From positions 1 to 45,357 of the forward strand of contig JAZLAA010000143.1 of the NCBI GenBank assembly GCA_045612945.1: 45,357 nucleotides of DNA, written 5' to 3'. Each line of letters opens with the position of its first letter. Position 1 is the stretch's first letter. This document shows positions 24,039-38,072 of the stretch, in pieces. The notes beneath the pieces were generated by a model. It saw only the letters and a list, made by a program, of their open reading frames with translations. It did no database searches and was not told where the DNA came from. The translations under genes were made by a program, and so were the position numbers. Origin of the DNA: Elusimicrobiaceae bacterium (lineage in GTDB: Bacteria > Elusimicrobiota > Elusimicrobia > Elusimicrobiales > Elusimicrobiaceae).

Positions 24039-24284
24039 ACAATTTAATCTGTTTTTGGAACCGTTTAAGAAACGGAGTGCTTACAAAAGTCCTCATTCCC
24101 TCCAAAAACAGTCGTGTTTAGGCACAAAACGGCGACGGCTGTTTTGTGCTCAGTGTTTGCCGTTCTTTATGAACGGCAGGCCACGGCTGTTCGTGTTGGG
24201 ACTGGGAATGAGGCTCAATGCACCGGCCGTTTTTCTATGGTTTCTCTAACAGGTAAGTTGAAATTAACCTAAAGGAGAAATCGT
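24039..24284 (+). ncRNA. Candidate structured leader RNA, copy 1 (unassigned family)
   Basis: Homologous to 29734-29991(-) and 37318-37577(+); covarying helices (see findings). Confidence 0.75.
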
Positions 24285-24346
24285 ATGACAAAGAACAATC
24301 GGGCGTTTACGCTCATAGAGTTGTTAGTAGTGGTGTTAATCGTCGG
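24242..24346 (+). repeat. 105-bp perfect repeat, inverted partner at 29672-29776
   Basis: Base-by-base identity over the leader 3' end, RBS and pilin N-terminus. Confidence 0.95.
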
Positions 24347-24761
24347 TATATTGGCCGCTGTGGCGTTGCCGCAATATACCAAAGCCGTGGAAAGAAGCCG
24401 CTTAACTGAGGTGTGGAGTAATTTGGGCAGTTTACGCCAAGCATTGGCAGTAGCTATTTTACAGTCCCCGAATAACTGGAGTGTAGAAGCGTTAGATGTA
24501 GGAATAAAATGCCAAGGAGGGTCTGGTTCAGCCTGTCTTTTGGAAAAATGTCCTTCCGGCCGCTGGAGCGGGTATCTCGGCAATGGGCAGTGTGCTTATG
24601 TCCTTAGCGACTACCCCTCTCCCACAAATCCAAGAGTATCTTTTCCGGGGTATTTCACTATCCCGGGCGGTAGTGAAAAATACATTGAGTTAATACTGGA
24701 TAACTCCGGTCGTAGCTGCAGTGGCGACGCCGCCACCTGCAAATACCTGGGTATTGAATAA
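24285..24761 (+). CDS. Type IV pilin-like protein (PilE-like) 1
   Basis: Class III signal RA|[24 protein letters not shown]; 6-Cys variable head. Confidence 0.93.
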
Positions 24762-26644: not shown

Positions 26645-26692
26645 AAAATCCTCCTAGCTATATTAAACCATAATTGCATAAAAAGAGCAAGC

Positions 26693-26708
26693 GTTTTCAC
26701 GTGAAAAC
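26693..26708. promoter_or_regulatory. parS-like palindrome 1
   Basis: GTTTTCACGTGAAAAC directly upstream of parA. Confidence 0.8.
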
Positions 26709-26726
26709 ACTTGCCCGGGTATAAAA

Positions 26727-26742
26727 ATTTTCACGTGAAAAC
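26727..26742. promoter_or_regulatory. parS-like palindrome 2
   Basis: ATTTTCACGTGAAAAC. Confidence 0.8.
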
Positions 26743-26751
26743 TTTTACATA

Positions 26752-27720: not shown

Positions 27721-27734
27721 AAGGCTCCTTAAAA

Positions 27735-27750
27735 ATTTTCACGTGAAAAC
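27735..27750. promoter_or_regulatory. parS-like palindrome 3
   Basis: ATTTTCACGTGAAAAC; 26-bp context 27730-27755 is identical to 26722-26747. Confidence 0.8.
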
Positions 27751-27752
27751 TT

Positions 27753-28841
27753 TTATTTTTTTAATAATTGTTCATAAAATTGTTGATACTGTTGAGAGAA
27801 GTCTTTGCTGTAAGCGGCTTGGTGTAAGGTTTGGCGTGCCATCCGGGCGCGTAATGTTTCATTTTCGCACAGTTCCGCCAGAATACAGCTAAGCACCGTT
27901 TCATCCTGGCCGTTACACACAAACCCTGTTTCTCCGTGCTTTACTTTTTGTGGCATATCCCCAACCCGGCTTACTATACACGGAAGCCCCACTTGTTGTG
28001 CTTCTAAGAGTGCCAAGGGCAAGCTTTCTTCTTTAGATACCAATACAAATACATCTGCCATATTTAGCCAAGCGTTGATATTTTTCTGTTCCCCAGCTAA
28101 TAAAATTTGTTTTTCCAAAGCGTGGGTTTGAATAAAGGTTTCCAGTTTTGTTTTTTCCGTTCCGGCTCCCACTAAAACTAGCCGGGCCTGCGGATACTGA
28201 GGGGAAATTTTAGCAAAAGCTTTTAATAACGTAATATGGTTTTTAACTGGGGCTAACCGCGCCACACAAATAAATACTATTTCTGCCTCCATAAAGCCTT
28301 GAGAAGCCCGCATTTGGTTTCTTAAAGAATTATCCTTAAAAAATAAAGATTTTTTAGCAGAATTCGCTATAAGCGCTGTTTTGAGGGGGGGGTAATGTTG
28401 CACCTGGAGCAAATAGTTATACGTGGATGCCGATTCAGCCACGCAATACGTATCTATATTTTTTAAAACGCGGTCTGCCCAGCGCAAATAAAAAGGTTTT
28501 TTGGATAAATCAAAGTGGGGGGTAGTTACTAATTTAACTTTGCGTCCCGCACAGGCCAGCCGCGCAAATAAAATCGCACGAAACAGCATAGCGTGCACAA
28601 TATCGGGCCGAAAGGCCTCTATCTCCTGCACTAAACGCGCCACCATCCCCAACCCGGCACCTTTCATATCAAAAGAAATTATCTCTGCCCCTGCATCTTT
28701 TAGCGGCTTTGCCAACGGGCCCAGCGGTTTTAAACAAACCACCCGCACGGTGTTGCCCTGCCCGATGAGGTTTACCAACGAAACCAACGCCTGTTCCGCC
28801 CCGCCGGTATGGGTAGAAGTAATCACATATAAAATCTTCAT
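27753..28841 (-). CDS. Glycosyltransferase family 4 (GT-B)
   Basis: GGAEQ, RPDIVHA, VARLAPVKN, ESLPLALLEA (E-x7-E). Confidence 0.92.
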   Translation of the reverse strand: MKILYVITSTHTGGAEQALVSLVNLIGQGNTVRVVCLKPLGPLAKPLKDAGAEIISFDMKGAGLGMVARLVQEIEAFRPDIVHAMLFRAILFARLACAGRKVKLVTTPHFDLSKKPFYLRWADRVLKNIDTYCVAESASTYNYLLQVQHYPPLKTALIANSAKKSLFFKDNSLRNQMRASQGFMEAEIVFICVARLAPVKNHITLLKAFAKISPQYPQARLVLVGAGTEKTKLETFIQTHALEKQILLAGEQKNINAWLNMADVFVLVSKEESLPLALLEAQQVGLPCIVSRVGDMPQKVKHGETGFVCNGQDETVLSCILAELCENETLRARMARQTLHQAAYSKDFSQQYQQFYEQLLKK

Positions 28842-29262: not shown

Positions 29263-29733
29263 TTATTCAACCCCTAACTCGGCACAGATATTAGTAAGGT
29301 CTCCCCCGCTGGGAGCATTACACAATTTACCGTCATTTGATAAATATAACCCAAAAAATCCTTGCTCCGTATCACAACCGAAGCTAATCATAGGATTTGT
29401 AGCACTACCTATAGTCTCATAGTTACAATATGTACAAGCCGTTAACGGACACTTTGACAGCCAACAAAGCTTATCAGACACCGACGAACACTCAATGCTA
29501 ACATCTAAGTTTTGGGGATTCCAACTGCTTATCCCTCCCGTCTTGGTTTCCGGTGTGAGCATGGCTACCGCTGCGGCTTTATGTAAACTGCCCAGCGTAC
29601 TCCATACTTCGCTCATACGGCTTTTGCGTACTGCTTTTTGGTATTGCGGTACGGCCACGGCTGCCAATATGCCGACGATTAACACCACTACTAACAACTC
29701 TATGAGCGTAAACGCCCGATTGTTCTTTGTCAT
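29263..29733 (-). CDS. Type IV pilin-like protein (PilE-like) 2
   Basis: RA|[24 protein letters not shown]; 8-Cys variable head. Confidence 0.93.
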
Positions 29734-29776
29734 ACGATTTCTCCTTTAGGTTAATTTCAACTTACCTGTTAGAGAA
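29672..29776 (-). repeat. 105-bp perfect repeat, inverted partner at 24242-24346
   Basis: Reverse complement is identical to 24242-24346. Confidence 0.95.
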
Positions 29777-29991
29777 CCCATAGAAAACCGGCCGATACTG
29801 CCGAGAGAAATGAAGTGCCCCGACAACAACAGCCGTGGTTCGTCCCGCTACAACGGGACAAACACTCGGCACAAAGCTAACGGGTAATTAGTCCGTTTAC
29901 TTTGTGCCTAAATCGGCTGTTTTTGGTCTTCATTTCTGTTTCGGTTTCCCAAAACGCACCGTTATACGGTTCCAAAAACAGGTTAAATTGT
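29734..29991 (-). ncRNA. Candidate structured leader RNA, copy 2
   Basis: Same conserved blocks and helices as copies 1 and 3, read on the minus strand. Confidence 0.75.
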
Positions 29992-29997
29992 ATCTAT

Positions 29998-30026
29998 AGT
30001 ATAATAAAAAAGCGTGCATTTTACAA
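29998..30026 (-). promoter_or_regulatory. Sigma70-type promoter of pilin cassette 2
   Basis: TTGTAA-17 nt-TATACT on the minus strand. Confidence 0.7.
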
Positions 30027-30033
30027 TGCACGC
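30006..30033 (-). terminator. Intrinsic terminator of the pheST operon
   Basis: GCGTGCATT/AATGCACGC stem followed by a U-run on the minus strand; overlaps the cassette-2 -35 box. Confidence 0.8.
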
Positions 30034-30054: not shown

Positions 30055-30315
30055 CTACACAATTTTTTCTTGCTCTTTTTGGGCCTTTTCCAGCTCTTTA
30101 TCCACCCGGGCGGCCAGCCGGCGTAGCACTGTTTGCGTGTTTTTTTTCCATTCTTTCAGTTCACGCAGTTGTATTTGCAATTCTTTAAGAGCCAGGCTAT
30201 CTTCTTCTAAATTGCGAAGGCGGTTTTTAAGCGCGGCGTTCTCGCCGGCCAGTTCTTTTTGGCGGGCCAGCGTTTTAGCAATTAGAAGTTCCAACTGTTT
30301 TAGTTTTTCTTGCAT
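30055..30315 (-). CDS. Short coiled-coil protein (ZapB-like)
   Basis: 86-aa heptad-rich helix coupled to the pheT stop; ZapB/ZapA-like genes commonly follow pheT. Confidence 0.7.
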   Translation of the reverse strand: MQEKLKQLELLIAKTLARQKELAGENAALKNRLRNLEEDSLALKELQIQLRELKEWKKNTQTVLRRLAARVDKELEKAQKEQEKIV

Positions 30316-37317: not shown

Positions 37318-37577
37318 ACAATTTGATCTGTTTTTGGAACCGTATGTAGAATACGGAGGACTTTTGATTCAAAAGTTTTATGCGAGTCCAAAGACAGCCG
37401 ATTTAGGCGCACGAAGGCGACGGCCGACGTGTGCCCAGTGTTTGCCTTTTCGCGTTATGCGAAATAGGCAAACCACGGCTGTTCCTCTAGGGTTCACTCG
37501 CATAGACTTTGGTGGTTCGGCCGTTTTTCATAGGTTCCTCTGGCAGTTAAATTGAAATTGAACAAAAGGAGTAACTT
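37318..37577 (+). ncRNA. Candidate structured leader RNA, copy 3
   Basis: Same conserved blocks and helices as copies 1 and 2. Confidence 0.75.
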
Positions 37578-38072
37578 ATGAAAAACCAAACAAGAGGGTT
37601 TACCCTCATAGAGTTGTTAGTAGTTGTGTTAATCGTTGGTATTTTAGCGGCAGTAGCGGTGCCGCAGTACCAAAAAGCCGTGGAAAAGAGCCGGTTAGCC
37701 GAAGTATGGGCCAACTTAAATGCCTTGCACAAAGCCGCCGCTACCATGGAAATGACCACAGGACTAGATGTGTGGGGAGAAGAAAACGCTCCCAAACTCA
37801 ACGAGTTGGATGTGGAGCTTACCGGATTTTCAAGTTGCCATTTGGTAAGCGGGAATTCAATGTGTTGGACAGCGTGCCCTTCCGTTGGATGGCGCAATTG
37901 CTTTTATGAAGTGGCCGGAACAGGTGTTAGGCGTTTTGGTTTTGATAAAAACAATAACTACATAGACCTTTCCATCTCGCGTGACGGCAAACGGTCTTGT
38001 AGTGCCAGCAAAGGTGTGTGCAATCAGCTAGGAATGTGTGCTGCTAACGAAACGTCATGTGATTTAGATTAA
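37578..38072 (+). CDS. Type IV pilin-like protein (PilE-like) 3
   Basis: RG|[24 protein letters not shown]; 8-Cys variable head. Confidence 0.93.
   Translation: MKNQTRGFTLIELLVVVLIVGILAAVAVPQYQKAVEKSRLAEVWANLNALHKAAATMEMTTGLDVWGEENAPKLNELDVELTGFSSCHLVSGNSMCWTACPSVGWRNCFYEVAGTGVRRFGFDKNNNYIDLSISRDGKRSCSASKGVCNQLGMCAANETSCDLD

What the first reader, a model, noticed from the sequence alone, without database searches (positions are those of the whole stretch)
29734..29991. Leader copy 2 (minus strand): same fold with remodelled peripheral hairpins
SEEN: sense reading ...GGAACCGTATAACGGTGC GTTTTGG-GAAA-CCGAAAC AGAAATGAAG ACCAAAAACAGCCGATTTA GGCACAAAG..AACGG..CCGTT..CTTTGTGCC GAGTG TTTGTCCCGT-TGT-AGCGGGACGAA CCACGGCTGTT..GGG..CTTCATTTCT..CGGCCG... 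It has a GAAA-tetraloop hairpin where copy 3 has ACTTTTG/CAAAAGT, and a longer first junction hairpin. INFERENCE: length-tolerant arms around fixed junction nucleotides are typical of a functional tertiary RNA core rather than a decaying repeat.
Basis: seen in the sequence. Interest (0 to 1): 0.75.

Follow-up and report, generated by a model that had tools for sequence, protein, structure and literature searches.

The report
Barcoded self-kissing RNA switch for pilins
About a hundred pilin-like surface-protein genes in this bacterium each sit behind their own copy of an RNA leader that matches no catalogued family, with two alternative predicted folds (one predicted to stop transcription), a self-complementary loop and a copy-specific pairing code, which likely lets each gene's RNA recognise its own kind and would switch surface genes on or off one by one.

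Summary
The genome holds 114 matches, 103 directly upstream of type IV pilin-like genes. Relatives carry 1 to at least 150 copies, before pilin, envelope and restriction-type genes. Rfam has no match.

Covariation supports two mutually exclusive folds, not one tertiary core. They are an anti-antiterminator plus terminator with a U-tract, and an antiterminator. The two are nearly equal in energy at the termination point, as in an attenuator.

Two features are unusual. The P4 loop holds a self-complementary hexamer in 70 of 107 copies (5.9 expected), with many different palindromes, like a retroviral dimerisation loop.

Best model (inferred, about 0.5): terminated leader RNA kisses nascent RNA from the same locus and occludes its barcode, forcing termination. 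This gives per-gene bistable switching without DNA change. No expression data were available, and dimerisation and switching are untested.

The parts
30012..30033 (-). Terminator-like hairpin of the upstream 86-aa gene (zapB-like by position and recall; no Pfam hit); the -35 box of the leader promoter lies in its loop
29998..30026 (-). Sigma-70-type promoter (TTGTAA-17-TATACT, 9 of 12); a -10 box at the same register in 84 of 107 copies
29971..29991 (-). Predicted 5' end (29991, inferred from promoter spacing) and near-invariant 5' strand; 29981-29971 pairs either with 29926-29917 (P1, anti-antiterminator) or with the post-terminator strand (P0)
29938..29969 (-). Variable hairpins P2 and P3 (P3 with the GAAA loop) inside the P1 multiloop
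29928..29937 (-). Barcode 5' arm: copy-specific, predicted unpaired in nascent RNA (mean 0.84)
29914..29926 (-). Switch strand: 3' arm of P1 and 5' arm of the antiterminator
29868..29908 (-). P4 hairpin, about 16 bp; 9-nt loop with the palindrome TAATTA at 29890-29885 (2+6+1 layout)
29837..29865 (-). P5 hairpin with a conserved bulged U next to a covarying pair
29828..29835 (-). Switch strand CGGCTGTT: 3' arm of the antiterminator or 5' base of the terminator
29806..29815 (-). Barcode 3' arm, in the loop of the terminator hairpin
29781..29835 (-). Terminator-like hairpin (29835-29789) and U-tract; this copy is the one of 107 with G at the first tract position
29758..29770 (-). Post-terminator strand pairing with the 5' end (P0), predicted to lock the read-through fold
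29741..29746 (-). Shine-Dalgarno-like AAGGAG, unpaired in the read-through fold
29263..29733 (-). Type IV pilin-like gene, 156 aa (Pfam N_methyl, E 1.4e-8)
24039..24761 (+). Copy 1: leader (to 24284) plus pilin-like gene; short P4 without a clear palindrome
37318..38072 (+). Copy 3: leader (to 37577) plus pilin-like gene; short P4 without a clear palindrome

Best explanation
This is one copy of a multicopy leader RNA with two covarying alternative folds, a palindromic loop and a copy-specific barcode helix; it is predicted to act as a transcription attenuator that likely senses RNA from its own locus and would thereby switch each pilin gene on or off individually. Shown by sequence and covariation: promoter, P1, antiterminator, terminator with U-tract, barcode helix, palindromic P4 loop. 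Predicted by folding: P1 forms first, leaving the barcode 5' arm exposed; when the 3' arm emerges, the barcode helix drives the antiterminator; at the U-tract the two folds are nearly tied; read-through RNA is then locked by P0. Inferred and untested: a terminated leader of about 205 nt kisses a nascent transcript through the weak, mostly AU-rich palindrome, and its terminator-loop barcode then pairs in trans with the nascent 5' arm. This blocks the antiterminator, so OFF loci keep making the repressor and ON loci make none: heritable, locus-specific phase variation of surface and defence genes without DNA change. My odds: attenuator about 0.85; self-RNA contact in trans about 0.55; OFF-reinforcing bistability about 0.35-0.4.
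For: Alternative helices are each kept in 95-107 of up to 107 copies for P1 core, antiterminator and terminator-base pairs, with wobble-only changes on the shared strands; 106 of 107 copies have at least 5 U in the 8 nt after the stem. The folds differ by 2.7 +/- 3.6 kcal/mol out of about 85 at the U-tract (102 of 107 copies scorable); the antiterminator is favoured in 101 of 102 just before and 100 of 102 after read-through. The sense strand folds better than the antisense in 106 of 107. Palindromes of at least 6 nt: 70 of 107 P4 loops against 5.9 expected, and none in P2, P3 or P5 loops. They replicate in G008 (58 of 84 vs 4.1), G088 (21 of 27 vs 2.0) and a second family (12 of 16 vs 0.9), with 14 different hexamers, mostly off-centre in the loop. 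Barcode: 105 distinct 7-mer cores in 107 copies, own arm best partner in 100 of 107, G-U in 5 of 965 pairs. Identical 8-mers: 0 of 8,493 within-genome pairs against 24 of 13,035 between genomes, while four control segments are shared within genomes at least as often as between. Blocking the 5' arm in silico raises terminator-dominant copies from 82 to 106 of 107. Cargo elsewhere is pilins, outer-membrane barrels, glycosyltransferases, methylases and GmrSD, classes that phase-vary in other bacteria (own knowledge). IsrK is a precedent for a terminated leader acting in trans on its own read-through RNA (PMC4825925, passages).
Against: 12 of 107 copies, including window copies 1 and 3, lack even a 4-nt palindrome. 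Most hexamers have no G or C (113 of 182), so kissing would be weak. Zero shared barcodes within genomes equals chance expectation (about 1), and can arise neutrally from reciprocal crossovers, old duplications or collapse of near-identical repeats in MAGs. The barcode can pair in cis in both folds (as a loop-loop pseudoknot in the terminated form), which would hide it from a partner. Trans pairing in the other direction would promote read-through. With the barcode blocked the antiterminator still dominates in 64 of 107 copies at the earlier prefix. P2 also has few G-U pairs (8 of 609). Equilibrium folding ignores kinetics and pseudoknots. Genomes with 47-80 pilin hits carry 0-1 leaders, so pilin families do not need it.
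Confidence: 0.5

Rival explanations
1. A riboswitch or protein-bound attenuator: a small molecule, ion or protein binds the antiterminator/P4/P5 junction and turns all copies on together; dimerisation is structural or incidental and barcodes are neutral pairing-only drift.
For: Unpaired junction residues are nearly invariant (A before P4 105 of 107, A after P4 107 of 107, bulged U 100 of 107). The three-helix platform is riboswitch-like. The genome has 3 GGDEF domains.
Against: No Rfam riboswitch match. It does not explain selection for palindromes, nor why barcodes persist across species while P4 and P5 arms turn over. Cargo shares no metabolic theme. Two simpler relatives lack P5 altogether.
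Confidence: 0.2
2. Self-recognition in trans, but as negative feedback or dosage control: the partner RNA captures the nascent terminator-loop arm or titrates itself into closed dimers, evening out expression of about 100 paralogues instead of making it bistable.
For: Same palindrome and barcode data; both barcode arms are predicted exposed in the terminated fold (0.84 and 0.80); IsrK acts positively on its own long RNA.
Against: The 5' arm is exposed about 120 nt of transcription earlier than the 3' arm, which favours capture of the 5' arm and hence termination (inference).
Confidence: 0.13
3. A stand-alone kinetic coin-flip attenuator: each transcript folds either way without a partner, setting a low copy-specific expression level; the released short RNA dimerises only for stability.
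For: Near-tied energies and alternating folds along the transcript; copies differ widely in predicted terminator share (0.00 to 1.00 among the three window copies).
Against: Gives no reason for strict Watson-Crick, genome-unique barcodes.
Confidence: 0.1
4. A selfish or mobile element (MITE-like or retro-element-like) or a DNA recombination hub that spreads among pilin loci; the RNA fold serves mobility.
For: Copy number ranges from 1 to at least 150. Barcode twins sit at different loci in 9 of 10 pairs tested, with flanks reassorted. Leader and pilin similarity are uncorrelated (rho -0.02, 95 units). The ends form an imperfect inverted repeat in most G000 copies. The site after the zapB-like gene is filled differently or empty in 5 of 5 relatives.
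Against: No reverse transcriptase in G000 (89% complete). No copies closer than 83%. No match in phage or plasmid collections; 2 viral pattern hits were chance. The 3' partner strand differs between lineages. Homologous recombination at the conserved ends explains the shuffling without making it the function.
Confidence: 0.07

Closest known systems
IsrK of Salmonella prophage Gifsy-1 (PMC4825925, passages read)
   Same: A terminated leader RNA acts in trans on the read-through RNA of its own locus, which has two near-equal folds.
   Different: IsrK activates translation of one operon. The passages seen show no palindromic kissing loop or paralogue-specific code. No sequence relation was found.
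CI RNA of phage P4 (as described in PMC4825925; otherwise recalled)
   Same: A same-strand RNA from the leader pairs with the leader and causes premature termination.
   Different: CI is processed from the transcript and has fixed seqA/seqC targets, in a single locus. Here an intrinsic-type terminator, a palindrome and about 100 barcodes.
pT181/pIP501 antisense-RNA attenuators (recalled)
   Same: RNA-RNA contact on the nascent leader tips an antiterminator/terminator choice; specificity classes resemble incompatibility groups.
   Different: They use a cis-encoded antisense RNA. No conserved antisense promoter was seen here (9 of 100, scattered), and a palindrome implies a same-strand partner.
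T-box and metabolite riboswitch expression platforms (Rfam families; mechanism recalled)
   Same: Anti-antiterminator, antiterminator and terminator logic in multicopy 5' leaders.
   Different: No Rfam match; no aptamer or T-box motif recognised; cargo is surface and defence genes.
Retroviral DIS loops (recalled); bacterial RNA homodimers ARRPOF, OLE, HYER1 (PMC12990946, passages read)
   Same: A self-complementary loop for homodimerisation; the 2+6+1 loop is the commonest layout here.
   Different: Those are genome-packaging, scaffold or ribozyme RNAs, not attenuators. The palindromes here are mostly AU-rich and vary among paralogues.

Membership tests
Any Rfam 15 family (riboswitches, T-box, raiA, ARRPOF, c4 and others held there) | Covariance-model match at the gathering score | tested here: not met
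   0 matches in the window; best over the finding E 0.024, a eukaryotic miRNA hairpin at 25 of 78 bits; 0 matches at E<=0.5 in 12 further copies
Transcription attenuator (functional class) | Terminator hairpin followed by a U-tract, upstream of the start codon | tested here: met
Transcription attenuator (functional class) | Mutually exclusive antiterminator overlapping the terminator 5' strand | tested here: met
Transcription attenuator (functional class) | Conditional termination observed in RNA | not testable with these tools
   needs reads or in vitro transcription
Metabolite riboswitch | Conserved aptamer that binds a ligand | tested here: inconclusive
   a few invariant junction bases; no family match; binding not testable
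Antisense-RNA attenuator (pT181/pIP501 type) | Cis-encoded antisense RNA with its own promoter | tested here: not met
   antisense promoter-like sites in 9 of 100 copies at no shared position, against 60 of 100 sense sites at one register; consensus scan only
Self-targeting leader sRNA (IsrK / P4 CI type) | Short RNA complementary to its own longer transcript | tested here: met
   barcode arms, own partner best in 100 of 107
Self-targeting leader sRNA (IsrK / P4 CI type) | Action in trans demonstrated | not testable with these tools
   experiment needed
DIS-like kissing homodimer | Self-complementary hexamer exposed in a hairpin loop, with palindromy conserved across sequence change | tested here: met
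DIS-like kissing homodimer | Dimer observed | not testable with these tools
   native gel or cryo-EM needed
MITE / retro-element | Near-identical recent copies, or a cognate reverse transcriptase | tested here: not met
   maximum 83% identity; no RVT_1 in G000; the MAG is 89% complete and may collapse repeats; transposases and target-site duplications were not searched systematically

The most novel reading that the evidence does not exclude
An RNA-only, address-coded epigenetic memory array. Each of 100-150 dispersed surface-protein genes has its own bistable leader, whose terminated product templates the OFF decision on nascent copies of itself, using a shared kissing loop to dock and a genome-unique 9-10-bp barcode to address. 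This would be phase variation with no DNA change and no protein regulator, and a natural library of hundreds of orthogonal RNA switches.
Probability: 0.3. Interest if true: 0.97.

Novelty: new variant of a known kind. Interest (0 to 1): 0.85.

Why it matters
It is an uncatalogued RNA family that sits before most pilin-like genes in some gut Elusimicrobiota (leader-pilin units are about 6% of this genome). It offers a testable answer to how a cell manages 100 or more pilin paralogues. It is a candidate for a biological use of bacterial RNA homodimerisation, where function is mostly unknown. If the trans model holds, it is a new route to phase variation and a ready set of orthogonal transcription switches for synthetic biology.

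Tried and rejected
Rfam: no credible match. Expression: no RNA holder listed; this is no evidence either way. Reverse transcriptase: none in G000. ANTAR search rang nowhere, controls included, so it is uninformative. Phage and plasmid BLAST: no match. The viral pattern scan gave 2 hits, neither a full-length member. Barcode as a guide to a nearby target: 17 of 102 copies have a barcode 8-mer in their own 1-kb flanks against 10.6 in other copies' flanks, weak and not pursued. Barcode array elsewhere in the genome: none, at most 4 barcodes per 500 nt over 2,818 windows. A 'closest 50 pairs' comparison suggesting a hypervariable barcode was dropped as circular; cross-species data show barcodes are long-lived. 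A trivial inverted-repeat origin of the loop palindromes was rejected because most are off-centre. Pilin-specific regulation was rejected: 32 of 50 sampled relatives' loci precede other genes. Earlier scan notes: nothing found in 3 look-ups. The Elusimicrobium minutum genome paper is not held; its report of many pilE genes is recalled only.

Full report
Observation. The quoted motifs are present at 29734-29991 on the minus strand, directly before a 156-aa gene with a type IV pilin N-terminal methylation motif. The strand folds far better than shuffles (z = -7.4). The two other window copies (24039-24284 and 37318-37577) also precede pilin-like genes. Rfam gives nothing credible.

Scale. In the window's own genome G000 (1.36 Mb, 204 contigs, 89% complete) an iterated profile finds 114 matches, 103 with a pilin motif within 450 nt downstream; the genome has 117 pilin-motif hits. 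The 107 full-length copies average 60% identity, maximum 83%. A covariance model built from 37 copies matches 58 of 70 genomes of the family. In a phylum draw it matches 34 of 37 genomes of that family, 7 of 34 of a second family (one marginal) and none in the 25 other families sampled. G008 has 102 matches and G088 at least 150. A pattern scan of named genomes returned 120 loci from 11 of 64 parts, mostly titled Elusimicrobiaceae, Elusimicrobiales or Endomicrobia, many from rumen or gut samples. I scored 63 loci with the model (61 of these and the 2 viral hits); 45 are full members, a few under other taxon titles that may be mislabelled or misbinned. The window's organism is therefore inferred to be an Elusimicrobiaceae member.

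Cargo. Of 50 best-scoring loci in relatives (a biased sample), 16 precede pilins, 32 other genes and 2 no ORF. Of the 32, 27 have Pfam hits: outer-membrane barrels, BamE and TRL-like proteins, TM2, DUF805, zinc-ribbon proteins, glycosyltransferases, sulfatases, an acyltransferase, a UDP-sugar dehydrogenase, DNA methylases, GmrSD, helicases, a dynamin-like protein and a few others. Conversely G043, G096 and G080 have 80, 52 and 47 pilin hits but at most one leader, and 18 of their pilin upstream regions show no such leader by eye. So it is a leader for surface and defence-type accessory genes that has spread to pilins in some lineages.

Anatomy. A -10 box sits at a fixed distance in 84 of 107 copies, usually with a TTG-type -35, which predicts a start at 29991. 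Column-wise counts show three overlapping helices that cannot coexist. P1 joins the 5' strand to the switch strand (10 pairs, each kept in at least 101 copies). The antiterminator has 8 pairs (95-107 of 107). The terminator base has five pairs at 104-107 of 107, followed by a near-invariant U-tract. Changes on shared strands are mostly wobble-compatible, as expected for strands with two partners. The sense strand is more stable than the antisense in 106 of 107. Constrained folding of 102 scorable copies gives the order P1, then antiterminator plus long helix (favoured in 101), then a near tie at the U-tract (2.7 +/- 3.6 kcal/mol towards the terminator; antiterminator favoured in 23), then a read-through fold locked by the post-terminator strand (100 of 102). 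This is attenuator architecture; termination itself is not observed.

Palindromic loop. P4 loops hold a self-complementary 6-mer in 70 of 107 copies (shuffles 5.9, maximum 14 in 500), and in 25 of 45 distinct loops (2.0); P2, P3 and P5 loops hold none. An anchor parser kept 97 of 107 G000, 84 of 104 G008, 27 of 32 G088 (from only the top 30 loci), 34 of 36 other and 16 of 20 second-family sequences. The enrichment repeats in every set, with 14 different hexamers and a 2+6+1 loop as the commonest layout, the layout I recall for the HIV-1 DIS. A hexamer cannot pair with itself inside such a loop, so conserved palindromy across different sequences points to pairing between two molecules (inference). 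Against this, 12 of 107 copies lack a 4-mer, and most palindromes are AU-only.

Barcode. The long-range helix is mostly 9-11 Watson-Crick pairs with 105 distinct cores in 107 copies; the own arm is the best partner in 100. G-U pairs are 5 of 965, against 6-22% in six other helices and 1.3% in P2. Identical 8-mers occur in 0 of 8,493 within-genome pairs but 24 of 13,035 between-genome pairs, whose remaining leader is only 49-77% identical; four control segments are shared within genomes as often or more. Among pairs at least 65% alike the difference gives p = 0.013, overstated because pairs are not independent. Zero is also what chance gives (about 1 expected). Twins lie at different loci in 9 of the 10 pairs that had flanks (10 of 25), including copy 2's twin in G008. 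Leader and pilin similarity are uncorrelated. So units are reshuffled by recombination, and uniqueness may reflect selection against cross-talk or merely reciprocal exchange and assembly collapse.

Mechanism. I commit to a self-sensing attenuator. The 5' barcode arm is predicted open in nascent RNA (0.84) and the 3' arm open in the terminator loop (0.80). Occluding the 5' arm raises terminator-dominant copies from 82 to 106 of 107 and lowers early antiterminator dominance from 103 to 64. A terminated leader docking by the weak palindrome and addressing by the barcode would thus keep its own locus OFF, while an ON locus makes little such RNA. The trans step, its direction and bistability are inference. 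Rivals are a ligand- or protein-driven switch, negative feedback, a partner-free kinetic switch and a mobile element. Two divergent relatives keep P1, barcode and terminator with only one middle hairpin, which suggests the barcode-attenuator core is older than P5.

Comparison with what is known. It works most like IsrK and P4 CI RNA (PMC4825925: passages seen) on a riboswitch-type platform, with a dimer loop like those reviewed in PMC12990946 (passages seen). It is a member of no Rfam family. Ten literature searches (listings and abstract starts only) showed no description of this RNA; the direct one, Elusimicrobi + RNA motif + covariation, returned 0. PMC11257099 (one passage) only notes pilins in Endomicrobiaceae. 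bioRxiv 10.64898/2026.07.01.735769 had no hit for my five terms. The library lacks most subscription papers and I read no supplements, so a listing in a motif catalogue cannot be excluded. pT181, DIS and phase-variation generalities are recalled.

Verdict. Real, strongly selected and apparently undescribed; attenuator structure well supported; self-recognition plausible and directly testable. Interest 0.85.

Noticed in passing
window 26688-26747 and 27730-27755: Three parS-like palindromes (TTTCACGTGAAA; label recalled) beside parA/parB-like genes; the only three in the assembly, suggesting the window is near the replication origin.
   Followed up: partly
G000, e.g. C13:865, C110:10247, C162:9325: A leader subtype without the fixed promoter: 15 of 100 copies have an upstream GGAGG with no evident start codon and 7 of these a downstream GGGCCC-type motif; possibly a ribosome-binding stabiliser.
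   Followed up: partly
G000 C79:5060, C135:6653, C9:11493; L055, L064, L076: Small palindromic repeat elements inserted between leader and pilin start, in relatives often in frame, giving N-terminal extensions.
   Followed up: no
L365 (G043:C1:1543529-1543706), L366 (G048:C25:31972-32145): Simpler relatives with P1, barcode and terminator but one middle hairpin; L365 precedes the same zinc-ribbon protein type as several full members. A wider family may exist beyond the model's reach.
   Followed up: partly
window 24224-24457 vs 29561-29794: Copies 1 and 2 share a 105-nt identical tract over the leader end and pilin start while their cores differ: recent gene conversion.
   Followed up: partly
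window 30012-30033 and 45 of 83 G000 copies: The leader promoter overlaps the upstream gene's terminator-like hairpin, sharing its T-run.
   Followed up: partly
window 30055-30315; L107-L111: The site after the zapB-like gene is a variable slot: leader plus ORF in G088, leaderless pilin in G008, no insert in G012, G007 and G016.
   Followed up: yes
G149 (L097-L106): A divergent subtype in the second family with a longer AT-rich P4 and an AGCT-type loop, 28 matches in one genome.
   Followed up: no
window copies 1 and 3; G000 C188, C70: Non-palindromic GCGAC-type loops are complementary to GTCGC-type loops of other copies; hetero-kissing is possible.
   Followed up: no
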